From contig OZ024741.1 in assembly GCA_964016885.1 (NCBI GenBank), positions 300,328,001-300,392,000 of the forward strand: 64,000 bases of DNA. Direction: 5' to 3'. This document shows, piece by piece, positions 21,735 through 62,274 of the stretch. Source of the stretch: Eledone cirrhosa (taxonomy: Eukaryota). Position 1 is the first letter of the stretch. The number at the start of each line of letters is the position of its first letter. A model generated the notes under the pieces. It worked only from the letters and a program-made list of their open reading frames with translations, searched no databases and had not been told where the DNA came from. Made by a program: the position numbers and the translations under genes.

Positions 21735-24106
21735 CACACATACATACAAATACCTGTCACTTAATTTACACACACATCGGCCTTACACTTTCATACACAC
21801 ATACATACATATACACACATACATACAAATACCTGTCACTTAATTTACACACACATCGGCCTTACACTTTCAAACTAAATTTGTCTGTAGAAGTAACTTT
21901 AACCCTTTCTTTTCGACATAAAAATACACACATACATACAAATAGCTGTACATTTTTTTGTTGGGGGGGGGGCTTTTCTTATCAATCTTTTTACATTCAA
22001 TTATCAGCCTTATACTTTCAAAGTCAATTTTTATGTTGAAGTAACTTTCACCCTTTATTTTTCGATACCCATTTACTTTCTAACATTTGTATCTCAACAA
22101 CAAAAACAATATTCATAAACAGACAGTAGACTTTCAAAGTCAATTTTTCTGTAGAAGTAACTTTCACCCTTTCTTTTGGACATAAAATGCCATCTAAAAA
22201 GCGAAATCGCGTTCAAGCGTAACAGTCGACGGCGAGAAGCTGCACGCGGTGTGACGAGCCCCAACAGCCCTTACTGGCACCTACGGGCTTTCAAGTATGA
22301 GCAAAACGTTAATTACTCGATGCGCTCTGACATAAATATAGGCGAGATACGCTTCAATTGCCAATTCTGCAATGCTACAAAGTGGGCTGGGGAGCCACCT
22401 GCAATTTGCTGCTTAAACCGTAACGTCACCTTGCCCCCTCTTCCGCAACCGCCAGAGCCTTTGAAAGAACTACTGACTGGCTATACCTCAAGGTAAAAAA
22501 AAAAAACCCCGGATCCCCCCAATAAAAGACGCTCCTGGGGGTACCGGAAAAACTTTTGTAACGAATTTGATTCTCGCTAAGATTCGTCAGGAGAAAAAAG
22601 TTTCGTTGTCCGTTGCATCGTCCGGGATCGCTGCTACTTTGCTGCCGGGAGGCAGGACAGCACATTCAACCTTTAAACTCCCTTTGGATTTAGTAAAAAT
22701 TGAGACACCAACATGCAATATCAGCAAGAGTTCACACAAAGCTATGGTTCTCAAAAGATGTTGCCTCATTGTTTGGGATGAGTGCACAATGGCACACAAG
22801 GGTGCCCTTGAGGCATTGGACAGGGCCTGGAAAGACATTAGGGATTCTACGGCTCCTATGGGTGGCGTAACCCTTCTGCTATCAGGGGATTTTCGGAAAA
22901 CGCTGCCTGTCATCCCCAAATGGACAAGAGCTGATGAAGTGCGTGCCTGTCTTAAGTCATCCATGTTGTGGCTCCAGGTGAATAGTTTGTAACTGAGCAC
23001 AAATATGCGTGCTCATTTGCATGGTGACAACATGTCTGCAGCACAGAACATTTTAGCACTTGGTGAGGGCAAGATCCCTGCGAATGACAAGGGCGGCATA
23101 GCAATCGACACCCTGTGCAACATTGTGAGCAAAACTTCTGACCTTTGGGAAGCAGTTTTTCCTAATGTCTCATCTAACTTTAAAAACCTCGATTGGCTCA
23201 GCGAAAGAGCCATCCTTGCTCCGAAAAATACCATGGTTAATTTTATTAACGAGCAGCTGATTGAAAAGATTCCCGGTAAAGAGCACATCTTCAAATCAGA
23301 CCCCGACGATATCGTTAATTATCCGGTTGAGTTATTAAATCTCCTTGAGCCTCCAGGGCTCCCGCCTCACATTATTAAGCTTAGGGTTGGCTGTCCCATT
23401 ATGATAATAAGGAACTTGCGTCCACCAAAGCAGTGCAACGCTACTCGCATGGTCGTCAAGTCACTGACACCCACTTGATTGAGGCCACCATTGTAACGGG
23501 GTGCGGAAGAGGGGAGAATGTTTTCATTCCAAGGATGAACCTTTTCCCTTCGGCGTCAAATATCCCGTTCGATTTCCGACGATCCCAATTCCGGGTGAGA
23601 CCATGTTTTGCCATGTCCATTTACAAGTCACAAGGGCAAACATTGTCGGTGGCGGGCATCCATTTTGAGGAGCCATGCTTCTCCCATGGCCAACTTTATG
23701 TTGCCTGTTCCCGCGCAGGGAGCAGGAATGGACTTTTTGCTTACTCTCCTCAAGGGATGACACGCAATATCGTCTACAAAGAGGTACTATAGATGTTGGT
23801 GCAGGTGTTGGAGCTATGCCGTCTGGAACACTATTTCCTTGTAGGGTATCTCATGGCGGACAGATCTGACACCCAGCGGCATCAGGGCCACCATCTTGCA
23901 ACTTTGGTCTCCTAAATTCGCTATTGGAGGATTATTAACCCATCATTGATTGACCAAAATGCTAATTGGTTCGTAACTTTTAATAATCGGTTCAACTGCT
24001 TTATGCACTAAATTGATAAGCTTATTCGCTTTCAAACCACGTTTACCTGTATGTAACTTTTCATAGCAAATGAACAAACCCGAGCAACGCCGGGCTAAAG
24101 TGCTAG
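21003..24106 (+). mobile_element. Internally deleted Helitron with PIF1 helicase remnants
   Basis: 5' TC at 21003; 3' hairpin cccgagcaacgccggg + CTAG (24103-06) in A|T context; zinc finger CQFCNATKWAGE..CC; PIF1 motifs GTGK, GIAATLLPGGRTAHS, WDEC, GDFRKTLPV, KSQGQTL, HGQLYVACSR. Confidence 0.92.
22540..23792 (+). pseudogene. PIF1-like helicase of Helitron (disrupted)
   Basis: ORFs 22567-22992, 23005-23478 and 23433-23792 cover the helicase motifs with a stop and a frameshift. Confidence 0.88.
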
Positions 24107-27066: not shown

Positions 27067-27120
<54 letters not shown>

Positions 27121-27123
<3 letters not shown>

Positions 27124-28260
27124 GATGAATATAAAATGAAAGTGCTTTTTGTTAAAAAAGGAATTTATTAGGTATTGACATATGTTTCTGTAACAGACCG
27201 AATACCTATGTATCGCTGCTTGCGTAATCATATAATGTTAGCAAGTATTCGATAGCAAATGTATAATCAGTTGTCACTTCTTCAGAGATTTTGGATAAAT
27301 TGGATAAAATCAGAAAAATTGATGTATTTATATTAGTAAAAGAGGAAGGAACAGAGGGGATAGTATATGACAGATGGTAAATTAATTTACTGCTAAACAA
27401 GTATATAATGGGTTTCTAATGAGAATACCATGAGTAAATCTAAATAAGAATTTTGGGAGTGCCAATTTTAATCTCTACTTGACCAACTGGACAGTGGACT
27501 ACCAGGATTGAACGCCTGTCTCTATCTCCGTTTGATTGTCAAAATAGATATTAACATTCTTTATTAGTCTTAATTCTATCAACTCTTCTATTATTTACCT
27601 TTTAATACAAACTGCTATAGATAAAATGAGATTTCTGATTTCTTGATTCAATTCCCTAATGCATATACCAGCTGGCTACTGGCATTGATGTTATTTAGTA
27701 GCAATCGAAATCTCCCCCTTCCCCAATTGACACTTTATAATTAATACTACTGCACCAAATGACCAGCCCTGTCCACTGTCCAGTTGGTCAAGTAGAGATT
27801 AAAATTGGCACTCCCAAAATTCTTATTTAGATTTACTCATGGTATTCTCATTAGAAACCCATTATATACTTGTTTAGCAGTAAATTAATTTACCATCTGT
27901 CATATACTATCCCCTCTGTTCCTTCCTCTTTTACTAATATAAATACTTCAATTTTTCTGATTTTATCCAATTTATCCAAAATCTCTGAAGAAGTGACAAC
28001 TGATTATACGTTTGGTATCGAATACTTGCTAACATTATATGATTACGCAAGCAGCGATACATAGGTATTCGGTCTGTTACAGAAACATATGTCAATACCT
28101 AATAAATTCCTGTTTTAACAAAAAGCACTTTCATTTTATATTCATCCTTTCTACATTTTCTCCGGAATATAATTTATACTCGTTGAGCAAACCTGCACGT
28201 ACGCTGTTCATCTCTAACGTAACGATATATTATCACTACATTATTGATAACCTGAAATTT
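27121..28260. mobile_element. Fold-back PLE-type element: ~380-bp inverted arms with an HHR-like core
   Basis: Arms 27121-27499 / 27771-28149; CTGAAGA at 27985..GAAACATATGTC at 28082-93, then AATAAA; (TA)n flanks. Confidence 0.75.
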
Positions 28261-28355
<95 letters not shown>

Positions 28356-29214
28356 GTACCTATGGGTTATATCGAACATTGAAAATAATCTTCGATTCGT
28401 TTGTAAATAAACAGCCCGATTTGAAGTTATGCCGTGCCGGTGACCAATCCTTACCTGTTTGTTTGACACCGGGTTTGAGGAACAATCAACCTTTTTCCGG
28501 GTCATTACACTTCATCGGGACTGTATACCTCTGCCAGTCTGTTGAACGGTTGAAAACATATTATTTCGTAAGAACTTATCGGCTGAGTAGCCTCAGTTGA
28601 ATTCCAAGCGAGTTACGGCCGGCCTTGCCGAATATGAAAAATAAAATTATTTTATTTCTCGCCCAACCACAGCTGATATATAAATGTAAGTATGCACACG
28701 TACACATATATACACATTTATATATTAATACATACACACACATATATACATATATATATATGTACGTATGGGTTATATCGAAAATAAACAATGAATTTCG
28801 ATTTGTTTTCGACTTTACATACTTTATCCTTAGAATCTGCAGTATAGATTTCACTTTACGCCTGACTGGATTTCTTCACTCCCTCTTTGTTCTACCGGCA
28901 AGTTCAGCCACCCCTACCTCCCACCAAATGCCATGATAGATTTATTTGTCTTTATAACACATTTTAACCAATCCTCTTGACAATTACTATCTTCCCATAT
29001 AAGGAAGTACCCCTTGATAAGTTTTGTTATTTATTTACCAGGCTAAAAATTCTTACTTAGTCCAGAAATAGCGGTCGAACCGGCTTGAGCTCTGCCGTCG
29101 GGGTCATACTTGTTCCTATTACCCACTCTACTACACTAAGTATTGAGTACTTTGGTGCGTTATGCTCCATCTGGTTCCTTACCACAATTCCTTCGTTATA
29201 TATATATATATATG

Positions 29215-30942
29215 TTAAAACAATGAAATAAAAAATCAAGTCATTAGAAATATACTTCACTGCTTTACGATCGTTTCTAGGTGATGATAATACATCGTAA
29301 CTATACGTTGTTATCGATCTATGTAAGGTTAGTTACAAAATATCAAATAAGGAGAATATTTACTTACATGCATTTCACCAGCTGTTGTCAAAAGCAATAA
29401 TAATTTTATTCAAAATTAGTAGTAAATTAGTATTATGTTTAGTTCTATGACCTTATTTGGAGGTAGTTGAAGAACTAACCAATCAGATTGTTTTTTTTTT
29501 TCCATATGATGTTAAGATGAAATATAATTCACTTTAGTTGAGGTCATGAGCTTTTGAAAGACATCGTTGGACAATTTCTCCTCTATAATATTCATTCCTA
29601 GCAAAAACTACAAACACCAAACAATACCATTGAAACAAATACCTAATGAGGTTATTCCTATTACACCAAACAACCGAAAAACCACACCAACTATTACTAC
29701 ACGATCTATGACCAATGTTATCAACTCACATATGAATACCAAGCATTCAAAATCTCATAATCTACCCAATAATAACACCAAATACAACCACGGTAGTTTA
29801 CCAAATTCCACAAATACGGATACTAACCATAGGAATTCTTCTAGAACACAGCACATTAATAAAAGTGGTAATAAGAACTTATCTAAAAACCGCAAAACAA
29901 ACACAACAAGGTACAACGCACCCTTCAACCTGCAAACTATTGGACAAATCCCCAAAAAATTCTTTGAAATTCTACATAAACATTTTCCACCAAACCACGG
30001 ATACCACCAAATATTTAACAGATATACTGTTAAATTCTCATATTCTACATCAAACAATCTCCAGCAAAAAATAAGCAACTACAACATTTATAAATTTTAA
30101 AATAATATGACCACACCACCACAACATAATTTAAATAGGACTGCACCTTTTAAAAGGACAAATAATACAATCCTTCAACCTGTAAAACACAACCACCCAA
30201 ATCACCAACACAAAAACAACATAACACAAAATCACAATACAACACTAGCACTAAACCACACACAAAGCAACCTTCATTCTCCCGCTAACATTAATTACAA
30301 TAGGAATAGCTCAAGAATTAATGAGAATGGTATGGGTACCCCCAACAGCCATCACACGTATGGTTGTAATTGCAGAAATAGAAGCATTTGCCCCTTAAAT
30401 GGCAACTGTTTCATTAACAATGTAATATATAAATGCCCTGTATCTACTACTGACTCCAACAAAACATATATAGGATCTACATCAAACACATTTAAGAAAT
30501 ATTACGCACAGTCTAGTAGTTTTAACAATACTAAACTAGCTAACACCACATTTTAGCTGAAGCAGTAAATAACTATAAAAAGAAAAAAGTAGATTTCAAG
30601 CTATCGTGGAACACCATTCTACAAAGAACTCCATATCTTGGGAACAGGAGAGAATGCAGGTTATGTTCAGGGGAGATCTTGGAAATCACTAAATCTAAGG
30701 ACGACTTATTGAATAAAAGACAGGAACTGATTATAGTTTGTAATCACCTTATACGAAAAACATTTAAATACTATAAACCTAATTAAATATTCTAAATATC
30801 AGCTCACTATAATTCTATGTAACGTAACATTTGTTAGTATCCCTTTCCCCTAATTATACGCATTCATATTTTTTTAGTTTCTTTAGATTTATGCGTTAAT
30901 GTCTAAGGGCAACAAGGTACACAACCACCCTTAATTGCATGA

Positions 30943-31025
<83 letters not shown>

Positions 31026-32035
31026 CGTGTGTGTGTATGTTTGTATATGCGAGTATATGTGTATGAGTGTTTATATGTGTGTGTGTACATTTATGTATGT
31101 GTACTTACATATATGTATGTGTGTATAGGAGTGTATATGTAAAAATATATATATAAATATATGTATGTATGATTGTGTGCACATGTGTAGATGTATGTAT
31201 ATGTTTGCATCTATTTATGTGTATGTATATTTTTAGTTGAGTATCAATATAACTATACCTCTATCTATATTGTGTGTATATGCACTTTGTGATCTATGAA
31301 ATTTATGCGTTTTGACTATGTCAACATGTATTTATCTGAGTTTGATTATTTATACATAGACATATTTGAAAGTATTTTAAGGCGTATCATACGCTGTATT
31401 ATATTAAGTACAATTTACCACACCGTACTATATTGTGTTACATTATATTATATTATTGCATTACTGTATTTCATTAACTTATTATAATTTTCATCGTTCA
31501 ATATACTATCTTTCCTAGTCATGACCTTAATTTATATTCACCTAAAACTCCATACAACACAACTCAACATTTAACTTTTACATTCCTTTTAAACTTCACT
31601 ATACCATATACATTCAACTATCAATTTGACAATCCCTTTCTTCCTAATAGAACTTTTATAGCATTTCTATTATTAACACCATTGAAACATTCCTTTCAAA
31701 TGGTCGTGACCTCAACTAAAGTGAATTATTTTTTCATATTAACAGCATGTAGAAAAAAACAATCTGATTGGTTAGTTCTTCAACTACTTCCAAATAATGT
31801 CATATAATTAAACATAATACTAATTTACTACTAATTTTGAATAAAATTATTATTGCTTTTGACAACAGCTGGTGATATGGATTTAAGCAAATATTCTCCT
31901 TAATTTGATATGTTGTAACTAACCTTACATATATCGATAACGGGATTTATTTTAACCTACAACATTTTCAACATACGGATTACATTGAGTTCTTCATGCA
32001 GTCTGGACCCCAAAACTTACCGTGGATATCTCTGT
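29215..32035 (+). mobile_element. 5'-truncated Penelope-like element (GIY-YIG) with inverted pLTR
   Basis: ORF pieces 29567-30786 (HKHFPPNH, CNCRNRSICPLNGNC..VIYKC..YIGST, CRLC); 29310-29552 is the inverted copy of 31706-31940; same family as 59520-61740. Confidence 0.85.
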
Positions 32036-32769: not shown

Positions 32770-33667
32770 AAAAGATGAAATCGAAAATGCAACTGGAATT
32801 CTTATTTTCAAAAAAAATATATATATTTATTTGGTTCCTTTACCGGTTTCGCAGTTCTTCTGCTTTTCAAAAGTAAAGTTGAGATGGAGGGTCTGTGGCT
32901 TTTCTCACATCTGGTTGGTCTCTGAATGTTACTTGTTTTATATGGAAAAAGTGGCTCGAAATGCCAGGTTTTTCGAGAAGTAATTTGATTGGTTGGTCAA
33001 TAATTATAATAAATTTCGCGCCAGTTCGCGTTACAAAGTTCTTCAAACAAGGGGAGGAGGAGGAGGGTCACAGGTTGTTTTTTCATATATGAGTGTTTGA
33101 ATTTCTTTTTACTTGAAAAAAGGGGCTCACGAAGGCTTTATTTTAATAAGCGTAATTTGATTGGTTATAAATGAAATTATGGCGGTCACGTGAAGAAGTT
33201 TTCATAAAATTTTCGCTCCCTTATTTGGAAATCCTTTTTAGAGAATTTTATAAGTAAAAGATAATGGTCAAGAGAAATGGGATGGGAGAATTGTTCTGTT
33301 CACGTGACAGCCATAATTTCATTTATAACCAATCAAATTACGCTTATTAAAATAAAGCCTTCGTGAGCCCCTTTTTTCAAGTAAAAAGAAATTCAAACAC
33401 TCATATATGAAAAAACAACCTGTTACCCTCCTCCCCCTCCCCTTGTTTGAAGAACTTTGTAACGCGAACTGGCGCGAAATTTATTATAATTATTGACCAA
33501 CCAATCAAATTACTTCTCGAAAAACCAGATGTGAGAAAAACCACAGACACTCCATCTCAACTCTACTTTTGAAAAGCAGAAGAACTGCGAAACCGGTAAA
33601 GGAACCAAATAAATATATATATATATTTTTTAAATAAGACTCCAGTTGCATTTTCGATTTCATCTTT
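32770..33667. repeat. Inverted-repeat mini-element with HHR-like motifs
   Basis: Arms ~32770-33195 / 33299-33667; motif TTGAAAA-gcag/ctgc-GAAA-ccgg-TA in each arm. Confidence 0.85.
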
Positions 33668-36292: not shown

Positions 36293-36353
<61 letters not shown>

Positions 36354-36357
<4 letters not shown>

Positions 36358-36745
36358 TAAACGGAATAGACAATGCTGACAAATTGTTCACAGTTGAAAA
36401 ATGGTTTAATTAGGAATAAAAGAGTATTAGTGATTGTATGGGTTAGTATTCAGTTGTGGTTTTAAGTTTTTAAGTTTTTACCGGTTGCGCATTTCTAAAT
36501 GCTTTTCAAAAATAATTTTGAGATAGAGTGTCCGTGCTGTCTGCTCTGATCAGAGCAAACAGCACGGACACTCTATCTCAAAATTATTTTTGAAAAGCAT
36601 TTAGAAATGCGCAACCGGTAAAAACTTAAAAACTTAAAACCACAACTGAATACTAACCCATACAATCATTAATACTCTTTTATTCCTAATTAAACCATTT
36701 TTCAACTGTGAACAATTTGTCAGCATTTTCTATTCCGTTTACCAA
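36354..36745. repeat. Near-perfect 392-bp palindrome with no spacer
   Basis: Centre TGA|TCA at 36549/50; same family as 53419-53801. Confidence 0.92.
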
Positions 36746-37266
36746 CATATAATAACTTGTGTGTTACACCTCTATTCTTTTAACTATATATATATATATA
36801 TATGTGTGTGTCATATTGTTTATTATATTACATTGTATATTCTTTTATGTTACGATAATTTTACCGTCATTACACTGTTTCTATTGCATAATGTATTTTT
36901 AACTGTTTACTTACAGCTGTGCTTCTATATGTATATGTGGTAGCACTTTTGTGTGTGTAGGCAGATGTGCATGCGTGCAGGTGTATGCATGTGGAAACAT
37001 GTATGCGTATGCATGTGTAGATGTATGTATATCGGCATATGCGTGGGTATTTGTATGTATATGTGTGGATGGGCGTACGCATGTTAAGTTGTCCCTTTTC
37101 TTTTCTTTGTGTGTATATATGTATGTCTATATATATATGTGTGTGTGTGTGTATTTACGTGTGTAGGTAATGTTTATCTACGTATGTTTATTCGTATATA
37201 TGTGTGGACATGTGTGAGTATAAATTTACGTATATACGTGTGTGTATGTATGTATGTGTGTATATA

Positions 37267-40679: not shown

Positions 40680-43600
40680 CACAGAAGTACCCGGCACAGA
40701 AGTACCCGGCGTTGCCCGGGTGTAAGTCGACCTCTGGTCTGTTAGAATGTGTGAAAGTTACTTCCCGCACATCACAGGTTCAAAACTTCGAACTTCAATG
40801 AAAAAAAATAGGTTAGTAGACGCAGGTGTGTAATTTATTAATTGTAGTTACACAGTGTATCGTTGAAATTGTTCTCTGCACGACTGACGGAAGTCAAAAT
40901 CGCTTGATATTGAATGTTCAGTTAATTTGAAGCAGGGTGAAAATGTCGATTTTTTTCAGGGTTTTTTTTTTTTTACAATTTTTGCGCTCACATGTGCATA
41001 AGAAGAATTAAAAGGGCCTTCATCTTAACCGCGGCAGTTTTCAAGAATATCGGACGTTCCTGTAAAAAGTTTTCCCATGTGTAACTTTGCCTTGTTTTTT
41101 TTTGCGCAAAGTCGAGCCCCGCTTCAGTTTTATTGATTTTTTACATCAATGCGTGATCTCTGAAGTAGATTTGAGTAGCTAAAAACCTGTCCCGGTAAAT
41201 TTGCTATAGGTGAAAACAAGTTGATCAAAATTGTATCTAGGGTTATTGCCCTTTGCAACAGCCTCAACGTGTCTTCAAGTATGTTTTGTTAATTTGCTGT
41301 GGAACTAAATCTACTTTCGTCAAATCGGACCGAGGAATCAATGTTTCCATTTCTCTTTCTAGCTAGTGTACCCGGATACACACGGGTTTATAAGGCGCTG
41401 GATTTAAATAAATGAAGAAGACACGTTTCCTTGCGACTGATATTGCAGGTGGGTGTTTCCCTCTTGGATAAATCTAAGGGTAGCCTAAATAATGAATGGG
41501 CTGTACGACCGCCATGTATCAGGGTTGCCGCTATGCCACTGGAGGCCACTCCTAAAGCAATTTGTACGCATTGCCTAACTTTAGCCAGAAGCAAGTTGAT
41601 GACGAAGGTTTTGCCTGTTCCCGCCGGAGCATCAAGAAAAAAAATACCTCCCGCTCTGCAGTCAATACTGGAGATTATCATGTTGTAGGCAGTCCTCTGG
41701 TCTGACAAAAGTCGAGGTTCGTTGAGCTGTACATAAGCTGTCAAATGCACCTGGTCGTAGCTAACCTCGCGCATGTACTCGATGTTTAATGAACCGGATG
41801 CGTGCTGTCGTTGGGGCAAACCGAAGGTAGCGATGCCCTGACCTCCCATTGCTTGGACTCGTTTATCTAGGTCGAGTAAGGCCTCGTTGTAGATAGCAGA
41901 ATTATATTCAAACCCAGCCGTAGGGTCCTGACGCTGAAGTCGGCGGAGGATGTCTTCGGCCACGCTGTTTTTGTGTGCCTCCTAAACATTTAAGGGGTCA
42001 CTCAAACCGCATGTCATCAGCATGATCGAAAACAGCTGGCGCAGTTGAATTGGTGCTTTGAAGGCAGTAGCCTCCTCCAGAGTCTGATCCCATTGAGCGT
42101 CATCTTCCAAGATGCCAAGTTTGGCACATGCCTCCCTATACGTAGTGCAGAGTTTGCCATTGATGCGCCGTAGCTCAGTGAAAGAAGTAGGACCCCTAAC
42201 ACTGTGCAGCAACATACGTAAATAAAAGCACTCATGGTAATTTGGATGCACTGTGTGCACTCTCCCGATGGCATCGCTTTTAAAAACGTCTTCTCCGTTC
42301 ACGTGAACGCGTGCTCCCTGTCGGCGTCTAGTCCATTTATTATGTGCCCAGGTGTAGTAGGTTGGGACGTCGGCATAATGAAGCGTTTTAGCAAACGGAT
42401 CTTCTTGGCACAATTGGAAGAAAGCCGTTAATTTTGTTGCAGGTAGGTTGGCCACCATGCGGCTGGCGGTTTCGTCAGTATAGTACACTCTTTGCCCATT
42501 CTCCAAGCGAATATTCAAGTTTACTACTGTTGGTGAAAGCTGATGAATGTCAAAATCAAAAATCCTCCAAATCGCCTGATTGGATGAAATGTACCTGCCG
42601 ATTTGATATTGTTGTATTTCATCAGGTTGTGCCCTGCCACATTGGTGTTCAATGACAGCCATATACCCTCTCTTGTTTATGTACTTGCATATGTACTTAA
42701 TGCTCTTCACCGACATACATGACTCAATATTGATGTGAGCATTAAAAATCTTGGCAAGAAGAGGGTTATATGGTACCACCCATCTGTTGTCGAGGACAAT
42801 CTCCTGCCCGTACAGCTGTAGCCCCACCATCCGCGGGTGCGCGCCATCTATAGATAGGATAGCCGTCGATCCCTGTGCGTGTTTCCCGTGTAAATGGTCG
42901 TGGAAACCTTTTAGTGCACTTGTTATTCTCCATGCAAGGTGAATTAAAGTTAAGGGCGCCGCAGGGTCCGTGCATCAATTGTTTGCTCACGGTGTTGAAA
43001 ATTGCACATCGGTTTGCGGATTGGGCAGTTCTGCGCAAATAATGTTTTCCATGTCCGTTGGCCGTATCCTGTCCTTGCACCATATAAGGATGTGAGCATG
43101 TGGTAGTCCCCGCTTCTGCCACTCCACGGTATACATCCATGCATTAAGACCACCAAATATTTTGTCGTCTTTCAGTAGCCACATCAATTTCTTGAGTTTC
43201 TGCTGGAAGACTCTGGCTATGAGGTCGTGCCTGTCACTACTCACCTGGCCCCGGAAGAGGTAGGTTTGAATTTCCTCCCATTTTGGATTGCAAGTGAGAG
43301 TGATGAAAAGATCAGGCCTGCCAAACTTACGAACGTAAGACATTGCATCCTGAGTTCTTTGGTGCATATAACGAGGGGATCCTGTAAAACTTGATGGAAG
43401 GATCACCTGTTGTCCGACGTTTCCGGCATAGCCATCACGAATCAGGGCGTCCTGTAAATGGATGTATTCCTCCGCACGCACTTTCTTTTGGTTGAGTCGA
43501 ATAAAAAGCAGACGTTCTGCCTCGATTCTGGCAAACATATCCACAATGTATTGATTCGTCAGCTGCCTGTATCGAAGAAACTGATTAAAATCTCCACTCC

Positions 43601-46515
43601 TTACCATAAAGCGGTAGGCATAAAAGTCCATAGATGAAATGGATTTCCGTGATTCACTACCATTGGAATAATTTACATGACGAAGAGCAAAATTGTATCC
43701 GTCTTCTCCGTGGGGGAATAAAAGAGGATACTGAAGGCAATCATACGATCTATGTGTCTCTGTGACAAACACCAGCCGACTGTCACGGTGCTGAAGGACA
43801 ATATCGACAACCAAAATCACTGCTACCTCATTGGTATTTGGTGCATTGAAACGACGGGCATGCTCGCCAGCTGGTCCCCTGTCAGCCCTTATAATCACCT
43901 TGATGTTCGGCGTGGTTTCAATTTGTTCCAAGGCAAACTTGAAATCGTGAACGTAGGGATGAGTCACATGGAGCATTGTCTGCAGACCTGCTATTATTCG
44001 CCTATCTACACCCTCGTTTAACTTGCAGCGTTGGTCAATCTCGGCCTCACCTCCACCCAAAAAGAAAACCTGCAGAAACTTTGGCTCTTCATTTGGACGC
44101 GGACGAAGACTACCCATGCGATGGTAGCATTAGCCTTGAAGTCTGAATGTAGTGAAAACGTTGTCGTTGGGGTTTACGCTGTTGTTGGTGTTGTTATTGT
44201 CTACACCAAAGGAGGTCATCATGAAACAGGAGTTGTATTTCCACATATTACGGCGGAACGTTGTAGCCGTAGTGTCGTCACCTGTAAGTAGATTCAGAAG
44301 AACGTATGGCGGGTCAGCCAATGATCCTAATTGCACCTTACCTCCTGCACAACACATAGAAGGCGCCTAGCCTTGCCACTTCATTACGTTGCAGGATGTA
44401 CAGACATTATCCATTTTACCGATGGAAATTGTAGGCAGAAGTCCGTAATCTTCAGAGGGTTTATATCTGAAGGCTGCTTTTACCCAGCCTGAGCTATTGG
44501 TAGTAGTAGTTAACGTATGCCGGGAACGCTTAGCAGCAAGCCTTTTGTCTTTGTCTGCCGTGGACTCCTCTGCAAGTGCTTGTTGACGATGAAGGCGAAC
44601 CCCAGCAAGCCTGGTCTGACGGGATGTTGGTGATTCCTCCGCCAGCGCTTGATGGCGACGAAGGCGAATATCAGCAAGCCTTGTCGTACGTGATGTTGGT
44701 GACTCAACCAGCCGGGAAAGACGTATATCAACGAGTTGAGATTCGCGCTCAGACGGTGTTTCCTAGAGAAAATTAATTAATTCTACTGGTTAGCTAAGCC
44801 AATGGCAGTGTCAATAGTAAATGAGAAAAATCTAACATAAACAAAAGGGAATCAAGGTAAGACAATAAATTTAATATAACTACGATTAGAATGTTGTAGT
44901 TGCTTAAAAGTGGTGACAGTTAGGATAAACGCAGAACTTGATAACATTAAGGGAGAATATTTCATAAAAGATTAATCAATTGTGAATGAACTCATACCTG
45001 AGAACGCCTAATTCGTTGTCTCAAAGCAGTAGCTGTACATTTTTTGGAGGTAAGTCTTGAACGTTTCCGTGTGGGCATAACGACGTGTAACGAAGCTGTT
45101 AGGTTAGAGAGAGGTGATTAAATACAGAGAGAGATGACCAGATTCGTTAGCATGGTTACTGGTGAATGGGAAGGTTTGGAAATATGATTACAATAACTTA
45201 CCGAATTTTCCGGTCTATAAATTGCACTTAAAATAATTAAATTTAATAAAAAAACAGCTCTGCGCTTTATACTCCGGTGAGCCTTATGTATAAATAATAC
45301 AATGGTAATCAATCACGGCTTTAACAGAAGTAATTGATCTAGACCTAGACTAAAAGTAAAGAAGATAGCATTTTCCTGGTTGGCCTTACACGCCGTTTCG
45401 CGGACCTGATTTTAAATGATACGCCTTATATCCTGGTGAGCTTTATAGAGCGGAAAATATCTATTGGAAAAGAATACGAATTCATGACCAAGGTGTGACA
45501 AAATAGGCGTCTAATAGCCTGAAACAAACTTGTCCAAAACCCTAGGATTTTTCTCGTTAAGTATCCACCCAAAAGGAACCGTTTTTTAGTTACAAAAAAT
45601 AACCAAAGTGTATAGTAGCTATATTTCTGACATATCATGCCAAAAAGAACAATATCTTCAAAAAATGTTCTAAAGTACATTCAATCTCTCTTTTTGACCG
45701 ATATCTTAATAAGCAAGTTATCGATTTTGTATTGGCTGTCAGTGTCTATCTGCATGCAGGTGTGCACGTGAGCGCAATTAATTGCAAATACGCTCATAAC
45801 ATTTAGTCGTAAGCAGAACAAAAAATGCGATTAGAGGTGGGCTAATAATGAAGACACAAACCCTGGTGAACTTACGTTTAAACACCCGAAAAGTTACTCA
45901 CTTCCTGTGCAAAAGACTGTAACAATAGTATTATAAATTAAGTAATTTTTTAGAACCATTTGTTTAAAAAAGGAAAACATTGGTACGGACGTAACATTTT
46001 TTACAACTTTGTATGTGTACAATACAACTTGGTCAACGTGTTATTTAGTAATTTTTTTTTTTAAAAAGCATGATTATTTAAGACTGTTTGAAAATTTACT
46101 CACAGCTTTTAACATCACAAAAGACACCATTAAATACTGTATTTCCACTTGAATAAGGTGGAATATGAAAAGATAAATTCTTTAATGGTCGGTCGTTTAC
46201 TGAAACAGCTGGGAAGACATGCAGCTGGCCGTCCAATCAATAACGCACGTCCTTATATGGGCATATGACATTTATTTTTATTGCGCCAGATGTAAACTAA
46301 GAGTTCTTGTGTTCGAATTCACATAAAATTTCATTGGAATCGAAAAACATTCTGTCATAGGGTCTGATTATCGATTTTTCGAAAATTTCAAGTAGCCTAT
46401 TCCACTCCACGCGTTGAGTTTTATATATGTGTGAGGTTTCATGAAAATTGGATGAACGGTGTAGCATGTATGTTCGGAACACCAAACAATGCCCATCTTC
46501 AATTTATATATATAG
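40680..46515 (-). mobile_element. Helitron with Rep and partial PIF1 coding remnants
   Basis: 5' TCTATATATATAAA at 46515; Rep motifs PDLFITLTCNPKW, VEWQKRGLPHAHIL, KYICKYINK; helicase FFLDAPAGTGKT; 3' hairpin/CTAG at ~41359-87 and a second hairpin at ~40704-40720. Confidence 0.9.
41388..44500 (-). pseudogene. Helitron RepHel, disrupted and C-terminally truncated
   Basis: ORFs 44130-44357, 42987-44117, 42766-43140, 41982-42830 and 41388-41963 are successive RepHel segments. Confidence 0.9.
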
Positions 46516-46604: not shown

Positions 46605-49600
46605 TACGCGCACACACACACCGACCCGCACCCGCACCCCACACACGCACACCTTTTCCTGAACATGGAACCTTGTTCTTCCCCCAACTCTCACATTCAC
46701 ATACACACACACACACACACGTACATCCACACCCATACACCACATTCAGTCCTCCCTGCTCGGACACCCCCCCTCTCCCCACTGCACCTGCCACCACCCC
46801 TACACGCCCCACATCCTTCCACCACTTGTTTATCTTCATGTTTATTTTTATTTATATTTTTTTTTTTTTTATGTCTACCCCTTCCACCCCCTCTTTTCTA
46901 AATGTCTCTCCCCCACTCCCCTACACACCCTTGGAACTCTTTTCCCACACACTTTTCGCCTGAAGAAGAGCTTATGCCCGAAACGTCCCCGTCCTCCCTA
47001 CTCTCAAGAGCGTGAAACTAATAAACCTCTGTTGGTACTGCCTCTCTGTTTTGATCCCGTTAGATTTTTCACTATACAATACACGCTCCCACGGCTTCCA
47101 TACCACTTTGGAATACTACCTTGACTACCGGCTGAACCCCGATCTAATCCGCCGTGACCACTCTCTGAACTTTCGCCACAACTTCCCACAAGGCGTTTTT
47201 TCCTTCCCTTGCATTACTTTTTGATTGATTTATTTACTGTACTTGTTTATTTCTGTCTATGATTTTTTGTCCATGATTGCCTGTGTTTATTTACGATTTT
47301 ATGATTTTCCTGTGTATACTCTCCTCTCCTTACGTTTGTTCTGTTTGATTTTCCCTCCCCATCTCTGCCTACCTTTCGCACTCACCTCTTCCTTCCACCA
47401 CCACCCGCCCCCAGCCCGCACACCCCGCATCACACACATCACTTCTCATTTCTCCTCCTGCTCTCACTCCACGCCCACCATGCCCAGCCTGAGATCCTTC
47501 CTCCACCAACTCCACACCCGCCTCAATTTTTTCCTCACCTCCTCCTCCCACCCTTCTATCTCCCCTCGGCCCTCCAACTCTCCTACCTTCTCTTCGCCAA
47601 AACCCGGCACTCCAGCCACATTCATTTCTTCAGCCACTGCCTCCACCTCCACCTTATCCCCCTCGGCTTCCGTCTACACTTCCACACGTACCCCTCCGCT
47701 TCCCCCTCCACCCAATGTATCCTCACCCTATCCTCGCGCCTCCTATTGCGCAACTCCCTCCGCTCCTCCCGTTCGACTATCCGCAAACTTGACCACCACC
47801 CTCCTCCGCCTTAACTCCGCCTGCCAACCCCTCCGCGCCCACTCCTTCTCCTCTTCATCCAAAACCTCAACCACGACCTCTTCTCTTTCCTCACCGCCAC
47901 CAAAGCCCTTAAGCTACACGCACTCCTCCCGACCACCCCCATCCATATGACCCCCAACCCTCACCCCAACCGACCCCACCAAATCCCCACACACACACCC
48001 CGCACTCCTACCCAACCACCACCCTCCACCTCATCCCTCACCACACCCTCCTCTCCTCCATCACACACCCAAACCCCACCACTTGTTGTCACCACACCCC
48101 CTGACCTCCCCTCTTCCCACCTGAGCGCTCACGCCTTCGCTTCATACCCCAAACTCCGCACAGCGATGAGTTCCGCACCCGAACGGAAGTCGAGCGATTC
48201 GTGCGACGAACGAAGCTACAGGCACATTTCGATCAAACGTCACCAGCTCCGAACGCCCCAGACCCGTTTCTCGCCCTGGGCCGACGACTATCGTCTTGGA
48301 CGCCGGGCCCAGGGCAATTTAGCACCCTGGACGCGTTCGACGATGCTTGCCGTAGCGCACTAAATCGCTTCGACTTCCGCCAACGGTCCAAACAGCATAA
48401 CATCTCACGGGGCGAACTCCTCGCTCTCCGCTCCCTCCATAGCCGAGATGACATCGTCATCAAACCGGCGGACAAGGGAGGCGCCGTCGTGGTGTGGGGC
48501 ACTTCCCCCTACATGGCTGAAGCCCTCAGGCAGCTCCGTAACCTCCTCTTTTACCGCCCTCTACCATCCGATCCCACACCTTTCTACCAACAACAAGTTT
48601 CCTCCACCATCCAACACCTTGTCTCCTCCCCCCACCGCTTCCCACCTCATCGTCCGCACCCCACGCACCCCACGCACCCCACTATCTACTTCCTCCCAAA
48701 GCTCCACAAACCCGACAACCCCGGCCACCTCATCGCCTCCGCTTGCAACTGCCCCACCGAACTCATCTACGCCTTTCTTGACTCCGTCCTCGCGCCCCTC
48801 GTCACAACCCTCTCCTCCCACATCTCCGACACCAACCACGCCCTTCGCCTATTCGACTCCTTCACCTTCCCACCCGGCCCACAGTCCTTCCTCTTCACCC
48901 TAGATATCAAGTCGCTCTATACTGTCATTCCCTACGCCGACGGCCTATGTGCCATCAAGCACTGCTTCGACCTTTTCCCCTCCACCATACCCTCTACCCC
49001 CACGCTCCTTCGCCTCACCGAGCTGGTCCTCACCCTCAACTGTTTCCCCTTCTCGGGTGAGTCTTACCAACAGGTCACCGGGGTAGCAATGGGCACAAGA
49101 ATGGGCCCAAACTATGCCAACCTTTACGTTGGCCATGTTGAGGCCCAAATTTTTGCCCAGTACACCGGCCCACGCCCGAACTGTACGGTCGTTACATCGC
49201 CGACTGTATCGTAGCCACGACCCCCACCCGAGAACAGCTCGACTCCTTTCTCTCCTTCTTCCTCTCCTTCCACCCCTCCCTCCACTTCACGACCTCTATG
49301 TCCACCACCCACGTCCACCTCTTAGACATCTCCGTCGCCTTCGACCCCGCCCACCACTCCCTCATCACCTCCGCCTTCTTCAAACCCACTGACTGCCACT
49401 CCTACCTCGACTTCACCTCCTACCACCCTATACACACTAAATACTCTATTCCCTACACCCAACTCCTCAGGATCCGCCGCTCTGCAGCCGAAATGTTGAC
49501 TTTGATCCCAGGACCTTTCCCTAGTCAGCCATTTCATCCGCAGAGGTTACCCCCTCCCTCGTCCACACCGCCCTCACGCGCGCCTGTACTGTCCTCCCAC

Positions 49601-51850
49601 CCCACCCCCAAGGTCGCTCCTTCCCCACCACCTAAGACACCTCCACCGCAGCCCTCCACCGCACCATCCTTCGCCTCTTCCGACGCCTCCAGTCCGACCC
49701 CTCCACCTACCACATATTCCCATCTGCACCACTCTCCTCATTCAAACGCGCATGCAATCTCCGCACTCTCTTCGTCAGCAGCTCCCTACCCCGGTTCTCT
49801 CCGGTTCCCTTCCCTGTTCCAGGCTTCGTTGCAACACCTGTCCCCACATCACCAACACCAGGCTCCCAACGGCCACTCTCTCTCTGTCCGGCACGCCTTC
49901 CGCTGCACCTCCTCCAACCTAGTCTATGGACTTCGCTGCACGGAGTGTAGCGCAACCTACGTCGGACAGACTGGACGTCGCCTGGCGGACCGTTTCACCG
50001 AACACCTCCGGGATATTCGTCTCGGCGGGAGTTCCCTCATCGCCCGCCACTTTGGCTCCCCTGGAAATTCCGCGCACCACCTCACAGTATGTGGCCTACT
50101 CCAATGTCACGGAACGCCGGCCACCCTCCTCAGGGTCGAACAACGCACCATCTTCACCCTACTTACCCACACTCCCCCGGCCTGAACACCCCACCCCTAT
50201 TCATTTAGACTTCGACCTCGCTGTTCACCCACCCCTCCACATATTTCCCCCACTAACACCACTAACACACTCTTCCTTTTCACCGCCCACCCCACAACTA
50301 ACAATACTCACATCCCCACCCCACCCCCGACCACGCTCTCCCAACTAACAATACTAACATATTTCCCCCCTCCAACTCCCACCTCCTCCCTATCACGCAC
50401 ACACCCACCGGTACATATATACACACTCTCACACTACCCACACACACTACTACCACCACTACCCCTCACCCACACATCCACTACCACCACCCCACAACTA
50501 ATACCACTAACATCCCCCCGACCCCACGCACACGAACACACACACTCACTCACACCAACTTACACCACCCACTCTACACACTCTACCACCACTGACCCCC
50601 ACTAACACACCCGCATTCAACCCTTTCTCCACCACTAGTATACTAACACCCACTAACACACCCTTCACCACACACACACTCATCCAAACACGCACACACA
50701 CACCAGTACACTACACTCCCTCCACCGTCCCCCACGCCTTTCTCTCCCTCTTCCCGCTCCACCCACACCCCTTCACACACACACACACACATCCCACTAA
50801 CACCTCTACTAATACACACACCCTCCGCCGCACGACCCCTTCCCACTCCACCTTTCACACCTACCCATCCTCTCTCCTCTCCACCGCACCTCCGCACACA
50901 CTGATACACCGACTTTCTCCACCTGCCAATCTCCTCTACTGCTGCTATGCCTTGACCCTCTCACCACTTCTCCGCACACACAGACACACAACCCTCTCCA
51001 CCTCTCATACTCCTCTACCCTCCCCCGGCCTTGACCCTCTGACCACTTCCTGTTGCGCGTATACCCCACATCTCCCCTCTTCCGGCCAACCCAACCACGG
51101 ATTACACACATTGGCCATCGTTCCTACCAATCAACTCCATCACAAGGAAAATATCCGGCACTCACCACACCCTCTACGGGACTACCTTAGAAACTTACCC
51201 GCAGACATACATTCACAAAAAAATTTTTCCCACACGCCACCTACATCCACAATACGTATAAACACCACACACGCGTGCGTACCCCCACATATTTACACAA
51301 TCCGCCTCCGGAATCCTCTCTCCCCTCCGCGACCCATCTGACCCCTTCCCATCCACAGGCGCGCACACACACCGACCCACACCCCACCACACACACACAC
51401 ATTTCCTGAACATGGAACATCGTTCTACCCCCAACTCTCACATTCACATACACACACACACACGTACACCTACACACATACACCACCTTCAGCCTTCCCC
51501 GCTCGGACTCCCCCTCTCCCTCTCCCTCTCCCCACTCCACCCGCCACCAGCCCTACACGCCCCACATCCTTCCACCAGTTGTTTATCTTCATGTTTATTT
51601 TTATTTTTATTTTTATTTGTTTTATATTTATTTTTATTTGAACCCCTTCCACCGTCCCCCCCCCCTTTTTTCTAAATGTCTATCCCCCACTCCCCTACGC
51701 ACCCTTGGAACTCTCTTCCCACACACTTTTCGCCTGAAGACGGGCTTATGCGCGAAACGCCCCCCCCCCCCCCCTCACTCTCAAGAGTGTGAAACTAATA
51801 AACCTTTGTTTGTACTGCCTCTGTTTTGTTCCCGTTCCATTTTTCACTAT
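46605..51850 (+). mobile_element. Near full-length Penelope-like element (RT + GIY-YIG) with direct pLTRs
   Basis: pLTRs ~46605-47075 and ~51358-51850; RT motifs KPADKGGAVVVW, YFLPKLHKP, LDIKSLYT, GVAMGTRMGPNYANL, RYIAD (degenerate YIDD); GIY-YIG NLVYGLRCTECSATYVGQTGRRLADRFTEH; frameshifted. Confidence 0.92.
46958..46990 (+). ncRNA. Minimal hammerhead ribozyme in 5' pLTR
   Basis: CTGAAGA-agagc-ttat-gccc-GAAA-cg-TC; further copies at 51734(+) and 51977-52008(-). Confidence 0.7.
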
Positions 51851-53382: not shown

Positions 53383-53801
53383 TTTAAAAGAATAGAGGTG
53401 TAACACACGAGTTATGATATATTGGTAAAAGGAAAAAAAAATGCTGACAAATTGTTCCCAGTGAAAAATAGTTTAATTAGGTATAAGTAAAAATTAGTAA
53501 TAGTATTGGTTAGTATTCAGTTTTGGTTTTAAGAGTTTACCGGTTGCGCATTTCTAATGCTTTTCAAAAATAATTTTGAGATAGAGCGCCGGTGATGTTT
53601 GCTCTAATCTGATTAGAGCAAACATGACGGGCGCTCTATCTCAAAATTATTTTTGAAAAGCATTAGAAATGCGCAACAGGTAAAGTCTTAAAACCAAAAC
53701 TGAATACTAACCAATACTATTACTAATTTTTACTTATACCTAATTAAACTATTTTTCACTGGGAACAATTTGTCAGAATTTTCTTTTCCATTTACCAATA
53801 T
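53383..53801. repeat. ~380-bp palindrome (1-nt loop at 53610) plus unique extension
   Basis: Arms 53419-53609 / 53611-53801; 53383-53418 matches the reverse complement of 36746-36783. Confidence 0.9.
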
Positions 53802-53856
53802 ATATATATATATATATATTTAATAGTGATAATAATATTTATACTGATATATTTAA

Positions 53857-59365: not shown

Positions 59366-59519
59366 GTATATATATATTTAATGTATATATATATATTCAT
59401 ATGTGTATATATATATATATATATAATGTATATGTGTATATATATATTGTATATATATATACATTATATATATATATATATATACATAATAATAATATAT
59501 ATATATATATATAAATTAA

Positions 59520-61740
59520 TAAAATAATGAATAAACAAAGAAACAGTTCCTTATATTAAAAAAATTCATCATTTTACGATCGTTTCTAGGATATATATGT
59601 GTTAGAGTTGGTATGCATATTCTATAGATCTATGTACAATATTTATAAAAAACTATCAGAGGGAATATACATACCTACACATATATATGCTGTCTTCAGA
59701 AATAATGATATTTGTTTATTGAAAAAAGCAAAGATTCAATACAATAGGTCTGTTTGGGAACAGGTTTTGAATTGACCAATCAGGAGATAGTGAGGGTTAA
59801 GATAGTAATATAGTAGTAGAAGAAACTTAAATTATAGGTAGAGGAAGGTAGATTTCAGTTTTGGATGGAAAAGAGTATTATGAATGAAGGAATATTTTAG
59901 GGAAGAAATAGGTCTTATACTGACCTCAGAAATAATTTTATTTGTTCATTGAATAAAACCAATAAATATCTAATATATTCTGTCTGTATGGTAAGAGGTT
60001 TAGAATTAACCAATAGAAAGTTAATAATTGGCCAAATGGTAAAATAGTAGTAATTGAAGCTTATTTTAGGGGTGAAAATAGGTCAGGTGGTCAGTCAAAG
60101 GTATACAAGTAGTTGCTGTTATAAAATAGTAATGCCAATACAAATATCTAAGGTGACCAAAGTTTTAAGATAAGAATGTTAGTGAAAAAAATACATCTAT
60201 GAAAAGAATATAAAATTAATTTAATTGATGGGTATATTTATATTGATAAAATTATACTAATACATATAGATATGATAAATAAGAGTTAGATGCAGTTGAA
60301 AAGTGCTGTTAAAGATGAGAGGAAATTAAAAGAATATAAAAATAATATATATATATATATGCCACGAAACTACGTAGTCGAGGAATTTAGGAACAGTTTA
60401 GGTATGATACATTTTATTACTAATTATATCTAAATGTTTCTTCTCTCTTCATAATGTATATATACCTATATATATATATACATATACATATATATACACA
60501 TACACACATACATATATATATATATATACACTTATATATATATGTATATAGATATATACACACATACACACACACACATACACACATATATATATATATA
60601 TATATATACATATATATATACACACATATATATATATACATATATATATACACACATACATGCACATATACATACATACACATACATATACACACACATA
60701 CACACTTATACACACATATAATTATTGGGGGGGGGGGTTAAATTTATTAGTGAGAAATAGTAAATACATATAGTTTTCAAGGAACATAGAGTCATAACCT
60801 GAAGTTAAAGCATTATATATGTTTACTTAATGGTATCAGTTTTAGGAAATGATATTTGTAAGAAGGAAAGCAAAATTATGTAGTTCATCAGTAGTAGAAT
60901 ATTAATTATAGGTTAACTAAATTAAAAATAGTTTATATATTAATTTCTAAAGTGTATATTAATTAGGTTTATAATATTTAAAGCAGAATTATGTAGTTCA
61001 TCGGTAGTAGAATATTAATTATAGGTTAACTAAATTAAAAATAATTTATATATTAATTTCTAAAGTGTATATTAATTAGGTTTATAATATTTAAAGGTTT
61101 TTCTCAGTTTATGATTACACGATATTATTAATTCCTGTCGCTTATTTAATAGGGTATCCTTAGATTTCATTATTTCGAAAAGTTCTTGGGAACATAATCT
61201 ACATTCATTTCTACTATTTTGATAAGGGGTGTCCCTTTTGAGCACACTCCAGGTCAGGTCATATTCTATATTCCTCTTTCTATAACTATTAATTATTTCA
61301 GCTAGAGATGTTGTATTAGCTAGTGAGGCATTTTTAAAACTATGTTTGTGGGTATTAAATCTTACCTTAAAATTGTTAGAGGTAGCTCCTATATATGAAT
61401 AAATTGAGTCCTTAGTGTTAACTTTACATTTATATACTATGTTATTCACAAGGCAATTTCCTTTTAATGGACAGTTTGCCTTGTTTCTACAGTTACAACT
61501 TTTCGTGAATCCTGTATCTGAGGAGATATTATGGTTAGTTTGATGTACTGGTGGTATACTCATGTTTTTTTACACTTATATGCATTATAGGCACTTATAT
61601 TTTGTTTTATGTTCTTGGTTGTTGAGTAAGAGAATTTAACCGTTGATCTATTTAAGGTTTGATGGTATTTGTGGTTTGGCGGGAAGTTTTTCTCTAGGAT
61701 ATTAAAGAATTTTTTAGGTATATTATTCTTAATTTGTATA
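59520..61740 (-). mobile_element. 5'-truncated Penelope-like element (GIY-YIG) with HHR in the 3' pLTR
   Basis: ORF 61072-61563 CNCRNKANCPLKGNC..IVYKC..YIGAT..CRLC..KTFKYYKPN; HHR at 59567-59707. Confidence 0.85.
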
Positions 61741-61772
61741 TATATATATATATGTGTGTTTATGTATACATG

Positions 61773-61828
<56 letters not shown>

Positions 61829-61833
<5 letters not shown>

Positions 61834-62221
61834 TAAGAGGAATTCCAACTTTGTCTGATTTACTCGTTTTATTTACAATCCTTTAAAATATATATATTAT
61901 GGTATTATAATGAAATAGTATGATAGAATATTAAATTATAAGTGTTAATTGAACAAGTACTTTCATGCTTTCGCAATCTTCAGGTTCATGATATGTGGTG
62001 ACAGTCGAGTTTGCAATTTTCAACTGTTGAAAATTGCAAACTCGACTGTCACCACATATCATGAACCTGAAGATTGCGAAAGCATGAAAGTACTTGTTCA
62101 ATTAACACTTAGAATTTAATATTCTATGATACTATTTCATTATAATACCATATTATATATATTTTAAAGGATTGAAAATAAAACGAGTAAATCAGACAAA
62201 GTTGGAATTCCTCTTATTAAT
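61829..62221. repeat. ~390-bp palindrome (1-nt loop at 62025) with an HHR in each arm
   Basis: tgaac-CTGAAGA-ttgc-gaaa-gcat-GAAA-gtac-TT-gttca at 62062-62100, mirrored at ~61950-61988. Confidence 0.9.
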
Positions 62222-62274
62222 ATAATCTTCTATACACAATCATACACACACGTGTATATTTACCTATCTATATC

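What the first reader, a model, noticed from the sequence alone, without database searches (positions are those of the whole stretch)
29259..29398. C3:G8 to U3:A8 covariation between sister hammerheads of one PLE family
The minus strand here reads attgctt-TTGACAA-cag..(~100 nt)..cta-GAAA-cgatcg-TA-aagcagt. The sister element at 59567-59707 reads cattattt-CTGAAGA-cag..cta-GAAA-cgatcg-TA-aaatgatg. Both partners of the known 3:8 tertiary pair changed together, and stem I also covaries. TTGACAA is also present in the direct copy at ~31859. This suggests selection on ribozyme function in a variant that standard CUGANGA searches miss.
Basis: partly seen in the sequence, partly recalled or inferred. 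Interest (0 to 1): 0.75.

Follow-up and report, generated by a model that had tools for sequence, protein, structure and literature searches.

The report
Swapped-core hammerhead in Hydra-type retrotransposon
About 900 copies of one jumping-gene family carry a hammerhead-type RNA motif, likely self-cutting, in which both partners of a core base pair are swapped relative to sister families; the swap is real but is already known from other such elements and likely happened only once in this group.

Summary
Positions 29257-29400 (minus strand) are a type I hammerhead motif with a U3:A8 core in the inverted terminal repeat of a 5'-truncated Penelope-like element of the Hydra type; the motif at 59566-59708 has C3:G8. 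Genome-wide, 891 copies are U3:A8, 3563 C3:G8 and only 83 mismatched (about 1% decay per site). But the two forms mark two sister families (about 60% identical in the endonuclease), and a tree needs one change, so thousands of copies are one event, not a covariation statistic. Stems I and II covary better (pair 10.2:11.2 switches five times). U3-A8 is published for Penelope hammerheads (about 1,300 in Schistosoma; Cervera and de la Pena 2014) and for natural hammerheads (Perreault 2011), and this scan noted it before on other DNA. Corrections: the 31859 copy is inverted relative to 29398 and lacks its 3' half. Small new details: U3 can pair with A17 (predicted 0.69-0.90), a possible brake; a second, unrelated U3:A8 family (6066 matches, tandem 591-base units) uses C17; the 107-base stem II domain keeps C.A and C.C mismatches. 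Cleavage is untested.

The parts
29257..29400 (-). Type I hammerhead motif of family A: stem I 5' strand 29400-29392, core U3-U4-G5-A6-C7-A8-A9 29391-29385, 107-nt stem II domain 29384-29278, G12-A13-A14-A15.1 29277-29274, 8-nt palindrome 29274-29267, A17 29266, stem I 3' strand 29265-29257
   Evidence: Sequence; fold z = -2.56; dimer model
29197..29569 (-). Inverted copy of the element's terminal repeat (pLTR) that holds the hammerhead and ends at a (TA)n run
   Evidence: 90.5% inverted match 29310-29560 to 31693-31941; matches to both ends of other family A copies
29558..30783 (+). 5'-truncated, broken ORF of the family A element: linker and C-terminal GIY-YIG endonuclease with CxCX5C motif
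   Evidence: Six-frame translation; 150 scored relatives at 88-100% identity; tree
30784..31941 (+). 3' untranslated part and sense terminal repeat; holds only the 5' half of the hammerhead (U3 at 31859); about 140 nt deleted at 31941
   Evidence: Comparison with L132 and L312
31941..32074 (+). Tail beyond the deleted hammerhead half, found at one end of other copies and similar to the stretch between hammerhead and ORF start in full-length family B copies
   Evidence: blastn to L132 5067-5200, L312 4281-4385, L308 4676-4505
59566..59708 (-). Type I hammerhead motif of sister family B, C3:G8 core, same palindrome and A17
   Evidence: (z = -3.18)
59495..61799 (-). 5'-truncated family B element (endonuclease remnant 61569-61075, long 3' untranslated part, hammerhead, (TA)n end)

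Best explanation
This is the terminal-repeat hammerhead motif of a Hydra-type Penelope-like retrotransposon family in which C3:G8 is replaced by U3:A8, likely by a single compensated change in the family's founder, and it is predicted to cut the element's RNA only when two motifs pair through their palindromes. Shown: the motif, its place and sense orientation after the ORF and before it in full-length elements (direct repeats about 4.6 kb apart in family B), fixation of U3:A8 in family A and C3:G8 in sister families B and C, compensated stems. Inferred from known PLE hammerheads: a read-through transcript with two motifs forms an 8-bp intermolecular stem III, each core cuts after A17, and a unit-length RNA is released as template for reverse transcription. 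Inferred: selection acted on the few master elements, not on the scattered copies, which decay. Predicted: U3 can pair with A17 and lower activity.
For: 891 U3:A8, 3563 C3:G8, 44 C3.A8, 39 U3.G8; by my reading of the lists the mismatched copies sit on both family backgrounds (36 B + 8 A; 37 B + 2 A), about 1% per site, with no intermediate family. Loci picked by protein alone: 15 of 16 readable cores U3:A8 with intact UGA in family A (15 of 30 loci readable), 13 of 13 C3:G8 in family B (12 of 30 loci). DNA tree of 84 of 184 copies with tested columns removed: 3:8 changes once, 10.2:11.2 five times, families A and C starred clades. Endonuclease tree: A, B, C group together (93/96), the one outgroup with a linked hammerhead is C3:G8; 20 of 22 motifs in 400 kb of blind genome sample are C3:G8, 0 in the reversed control; 9 of 11 hits in 61 metagenome relatives are C3:G8, none U3:A8. 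Nine core letters and the palindrome are unchanged while 61 of 160 other columns differ between A and B. Palindrome duplex -10.0 kcal/mol; monomer stem III has probability 0.001. Literature: U3-A8 PLE hammerheads and dimer cleavage (PMC4209133); natural U3-A8 and earlier proof of activity in vitro (PMC3088659).
Against: No cleavage or expression data. The 3:8 swap is one event in this clade; the independent-pairs test reached no significance for 3:8 (distorted because I oversampled mismatched copies) or for 10.2:11.2 (5 pairs, too few). Position 10.1:11.1 is a C.A mismatch, not the usual G-C. U3-A17 pairing is predicted at 0.90 in the monomer and 0.69 with stem III forced, and the unconstrained dimer of copy A folds 1.4 kcal/mol lower in a non-hammerhead form. 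Genome counts used core and palindrome as anchors, so their conservation among copies is partly built in. PLE hammerheads cleave poorly in vitro. No full-length family A ORF was among 150 scored matches (longest open frame 483 aa), against 834 aa in family B.
Confidence: 0.8

Rival explanations
1. Family A's ribozyme is crippled or dead: A8 arose by mutation (possibly CpG decay, since the basal family A copies have C7), U3 followed, and U3-A17 pairing locks the cleavage site; the family spread without needing cleavage or used host nucleases.
For: Predicted U3-A17 pair, analogous to the C3-G17 trap (PMC3884650); A17 is fixed (only 6 copies with another letter); basal A copies carry C7; CpG columns vary about twice as much as other G/C columns in family A (22/116 against 249/2595, includes subfamily differences); family A is smaller and has no long ORF among those scored.
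Against: All other core letters and the palindrome survived a 0.47 changes-per-site branch; the double change restores a Watson-Crick pair; stem I gained two G-C pairs on the same branch; G17 variants of natural hammerheads still cleave, about 20-fold slower; family A reached about 900 intact copies with several sublineages.
Confidence: 0.13
2. The fold is kept for a role other than cutting, such as a binding or template-switch site for the element's RT or a promoter; the 3:8 pair is structural only.
For: A conserved inner hairpin in the long stem II domain is shared by families A, B and C at sequence level; many insertions break or invert near the motif; the 2014 paper leaves other functions open.
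Against: The letters kept are those of the catalytic core, with H17 and a palindrome that only make sense for dimer cleavage; no data here for protein binding.
Confidence: 0.07

Closest known systems
U3-A8 minimal hammerheads of Cercyon PLEs in Schistosoma mansoni (Cervera and de la Pena 2014, PMC4209133; parts 1-2 of 4 read; supplements searched without hits, one file not searchable)
   Same: Type I hammerhead in PLE terminal repeats, U3-A8 instead of C3-G8, about a thousand mostly single copies, inverted pairs on opposite strands, palindromic stem III for dimer cleavage.
   Different: Different PLE clade; here a 107-nt stem II domain, 9-bp stem I, C.A at 10.1:11.1; N17 of the Schistosoma variant was not visible to me (figure only).
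Hammerheads of Hydra-clade PLEs (Craig et al. 2021, PMC8557442; section 11, passages, supplement part 2 of 59 read)
   Same: Sense-strand type I hammerhead near the 3' end, short self-complementary stem III, frequent mismatch at the base of stem II (U.U in many Hydra elements, C.A in PLE-X1_cBra), (TA)n target.
   Different: Every Hydra row in that table has a CUGANGA core and a short stem II loop; units there are mostly under 3 kb, here about 4.6 kb.
Natural U3-A8 hammerheads in general (Perreault et al. 2011, PMC3088659; passages read)
   Same: Same compensated core pair, stated there to be active in vitro on the basis of Przybilski and Hammann 2007 (not held; title only seen).
   Different: Those examples are not described as PLE-borne in the passages I saw.
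G17 hammerheads trapped by C3-G17 pairing (Kalweit and Hammann 2013, PMC3884650; passages read)
   Same: A Watson-Crick pair between positions 3 and 17 competes with the 3:8 pair.
   Different: Here the pair would be U3-A17, natural and fixed in a whole family; the passages seen do not mention A17 (0 occurrences).

Membership tests
Type I hammerhead ribozyme (dimer-type, PLE-associated) | Core U4 G5 A6, A9, G12 A13 A14, A15.1-U16.1, H17 | tested here: met
   All present in both window copies and in majority sequences of families A, B, C
Type I hammerhead ribozyme (dimer-type, PLE-associated) | Watson-Crick pair between positions 3 and 8 | tested here: met
   U3:A8 in A, C3:G8 in B and C; 4454 of 4537 copies
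Type I hammerhead ribozyme (dimer-type, PLE-associated) | Stems I and II flank the core and covary | tested here: met
   Stem I 9 of 9 paired in three families; stem II paired with different letters in each family
Type I hammerhead ribozyme (dimer-type, PLE-associated) | Usual G10.1-C11.1 pair | tested here: not met
   C.A mismatch in A, B and C; mismatches at this place also occur in published PLE hammerheads, so it does not exclude membership
Type I hammerhead ribozyme (dimer-type, PLE-associated) | Palindromic stem III/loop III allowing a dimer | tested here: met
   8-nt palindrome, duplex -10.0 kcal/mol
Type I hammerhead ribozyme (dimer-type, PLE-associated) | Match to an Rfam hammerhead model | tested here: not met
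   No hammerhead family at E up to 10 for either window copy
Type I hammerhead ribozyme (dimer-type, PLE-associated) | Self-cleavage after N17 | not testable with these tools
   Needs an in vitro assay or RNA end mapping
Hydra clade of Penelope-like elements | RT followed by C-terminal GIY-YIG endonuclease in one ORF | tested here: met
   834-aa ORFs in family B; matching pieces in family A
Hydra clade of Penelope-like elements | DKT in place of DKG | tested here: met
   Families A and B, and two further families
Hydra clade of Penelope-like elements | N-terminal RWK motif | tested here: inconclusive
   RWR at that place in A and B
Hydra clade of Penelope-like elements | CxCX5C linker, no CCHH, CxxC and CxH near the C-terminus | tested here: met
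   Window ORF pieces 30101-30553, 30544-30783, 61569-61075
Hydra clade of Penelope-like elements | Insertion into (TA)n | tested here: met
   25 of 49 A ends and 49 of 95 B ends reach a (TA) run within 125 nt, mostly at 50-70 nt; the remainder were not all examined, those checked carry the tail
Hydra clade of Penelope-like elements | Generally under 3 kb | tested here: not met
   Hammerhead-to-hammerhead unit 4616 and 4581 nt in L306 and L308; a tendency, not a strict criterion
Hydra clade of Penelope-like elements | RT phylogeny with the published Hydra elements | not tested
   Published Hydra proteins were not placed in my tree

The most novel reading that the evidence does not exclude
Family A is a natural experiment in three-way epistasis in the hammerhead core: U3:A8 with A17 lets U3 pair with the cleavage-site base and throttles the ribozyme, which an autonomous retrotransposon tolerates or uses as a brake, whereas the tandem retrozyme-like family in the same genome pairs U3:A8 with C17 and avoids the trap; the conserved C.A and C.C mismatches in the long stem II would be an undescribed tertiary contact that props up this weak core.
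Probability: 0.25. Interest if true: 0.5.

Novelty: new member of a known kind. Interest (0 to 1): 0.27.

Why it matters
It extends the known U3-A8 core to a Hydra-type PLE and shows that hammerhead counts in such genomes are too low if descriptors fix CUGANGA or a short stem II. Three sister families that share the palindrome and junctions but differ at 3:8, 10.2:11.2 and 17 give ready-made natural constructs for asking whether cleavage rate matters for PLE retrotransposition, which is an open question. The core swap itself is not news.

Tried and rejected
Intermediate lineage (C3.A8 or U3.G8 family): rejected; the 83 mismatched copies lie on both family backgrounds at about 1% and the five C3.A8 family A copies in the tree form no clade. 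Copy-level covariation as a test of selection: rejected as pseudo-replication. Naiad or Neptune/Penelope assignment: rejected on C-terminal endonuclease, DKT, CxCX5C and lack of CCHH. Pfam found nothing for the two window ORF pieces of family A that were scanned or for the family B piece. Rfam: no hammerhead match. Metagenome relatives: only 11 of 61 loci gave a motif and the relaxed scan gave 2 hits in the reversed control, so this set is weak; no U3:A8 seen. Independent-pairs tests were too small. Papers not held: Lunse et al. 2017 and Przybilski and Hammann 2007, so measured rates of U3:A8 and any listing of such variants in the former could not be read. Literature searches for U3-A8 wording returned only the 2014 paper with the exact term; a search for hammerhead + octopus + retrozyme gave nothing on these families. 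Figure-only data and one unsearchable supplement of PMC4209133 may hold the U3/A17 combination.

Full report
Observation. On the minus strand 29400-29257 reads stem I, U3-U4-G5-A6-C7-A8-A9, a 107-nt stem II domain, GAAA, an 8-nt palindrome overlapping A15.1 and U16.1, A17 and the second strand of stem I. The sister at 59708-59566 has C3 and G8 and the same 3' half. Both fold better than shuffles (z -2.56 and -3.18). Rfam finds neither. The third copy at 31859 lies on the plus strand, inverted relative to the flagged copy, and has lost its 3' half through an internal deletion of about 140 nt.

Context. The flagged motif sits in an inverted terminal repeat (29197-29569) joined to a 5'-truncated, broken ORF on the plus strand (29558-30783), a long 3' untranslated part and the sense repeat. 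This inverted arrangement with a tail at one end is the usual form of Penelope-like insertions (PMC8557442). The proteins have a C-terminal GIY-YIG domain, DKT, RWR, CxCX5C and no CCHH, and the ends sit at (TA)n, which matches the description of the Hydra clade; I did not place published Hydra proteins in a tree. Two full-length family B copies have an 834-aa frame between two sense hammerheads about 4.6 kb apart.

Counts in the genome. The shared 3' half occurs 7454 times. With the 5' half required: U3:A8 891, C3:G8 3563, C3.A8 44, U3.G8 39. Independence would give about 1482 mismatched copies, 83 are seen. These patterns cover only sublineages with A10.2-U11.2; a further 1965 matches have another letter at 11.2 and include a third family, C, and G-C sublineages of A and B. 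By my reading of the lists, 8 of 44 and 2 of 39 mismatched copies are on the family A background and the rest on B, about 1% per site, as expected from decay after insertion (median divergence of copies from their family majority 6-7%). Loci chosen by protein alone give the same picture.

One event. U3:A8 is a property of family A, C3:G8 of families B and C. The three group together in an endonuclease tree (93/96, unresolved among themselves, 58-71% identity; 15 rows chosen from 51 segments). In a DNA tree of 84 of 184 copies, with the tested columns removed, the 3:8 pair changes once, pair 10.2:11.2 five times and position 17 four times. Other hammerheads point to C3:G8 as the starting state: 20 of 22 motifs in 400 kb of blind sample, all Hydra rows of the published table, and 9 of 11 hits among 61 metagenome relatives (weak set).

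Evidence for selection on the fold. Between A and B, 61 of 160 columns outside core and palindrome differ, yet nine core letters and the six inner palindrome letters do not (rough chance 0.013 for the nine, 0.0007 for all fifteen; anchoring on these letters biases this), all nine stem I pairs stay paired with two double changes, and stem II is paired with different letters in each family. The only core changes are at 3, 8 and the free position 7. This supports selection on master elements for a hammerhead-shaped RNA. It does not show cleavage.

Mechanism. Monomer stem III is not predicted to form (0.001 in A, 0.046 in B); two palindromes give an 8-bp duplex of -10.0 kcal/mol. By analogy with tested PLE hammerheads, which cleaved weakly and only as multimers or with stem III extended (PMC4209133), two motifs on one read-through transcript would cut after A17 and release a unit-length RNA for reverse transcription. 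This step is inferred.

Family A combines U3 with A17, fixed (6 exceptions). Nearest-neighbour folding pairs U3 with A17 at 0.90 in the monomer and 0.69 with stem III forced, against 0 for family B; these models ignore tertiary contacts. It mirrors the C3-G17 trap, which lowers but does not abolish activity in natural hammerheads (PMC3884650). A second, unrelated U3:A8 family turned up in flanking DNA: 6066 matches, 99 of the first 100 listed U3:A8, tandem units of 591-595 nt, C17 in 14 of 14 readable copies, no PLE ORF tied to it in the 20 loci fetched (one locus has short hits at its edge). Its ancestral state is unknown, so it shows that U3:A8 can support a large family but is not a second polarised event.

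Comparison with what is known. U3-A8 instead of C3-G8 in PLE hammerheads was reported in 2014 with about 1,300 hits in Schistosoma mansoni from a dedicated descriptor. Natural U3-A8 covariation was reported in 2011, citing earlier proof of activity in vitro. Earlier notes of this scan hold the words hammerhead, U3, A8 in 194 findings from at least 44 genomes, including retrozyme arrays in this genome; these are unchecked leads and I did not test them. I found no description of U3:A8 in a Hydra-type element, of the U3/A17 combination, or of this long stem II domain in the searches made, but two key papers were not held and figures were not visible.

Verdict. Real, well supported as a conserved hammerhead motif, a new member of a known kind. 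Interest 0.27. The best remaining value is as a set of natural variants for testing the 3:8:17 interplay.

Noticed in passing
L032, L041, L072, L245, L249-L268 (G000, e.g. C1:15421677-15422288): Second U3:A8 type I hammerhead family, 6066 matches, in tandem units of 591-595 nt ending at (TA)n, often in inverted pairs; 10-nt palindrome, G10.1-C11.1, C17; looks like a non-LTR retrozyme with an unusually long unit.
   Followed up: partly
L225, L274, L282, L284, L300, L304: Third sister family C (C3:G8) with a G/C-rich stem II; keeps the C.A mismatch at 10.1:11.1 and C.C at 10.4:11.4 seen in A and B.
   Followed up: partly
window 29310-29350 (minus) and 59610-59650 (minus): An inner hairpin of the long stem II domain is conserved in sequence across families A, B and C while its neighbours diverge; role unknown.
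   Followed up: no
L034, L117, L122, L128, L279, L293: A family B sublineage with U17, showing G.U and G-C at 10.2:11.2, a possible intermediate of a compensated change.
   Followed up: partly
window 13618 (+), 14130 (+), 52614 from the minus-strand start: Three further C3:G8 type I hammerhead motifs of other families with an AT palindrome (positions are script offsets on the given strand).
   Followed up: no
window 47225-50185 (+): [quoted passage not shown]
   Followed up: no
window 22477-23478 (+) and 41388-44129 (-): Helitron remnants (PIF1 helicase, Helitron_like_N).
   Followed up: no
window 1857-3041 (+): Endonuclease/exonuclease/phosphatase-like ORF, probably a LINE fragment.
   Followed up: no
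window 27114-28156, 32967-33526, 36348-36751, 53417-53803, 61778-62272: Several long near-perfect inverted repeats, some with no spacer.
   Followed up: no
L141 4603-7134, L131 1539-2822, L216, L219, L309: At least five more Hydra-type PLE families in this genome, one with an 844-aa open frame; some nested in family A copies.
   Followed up: partly
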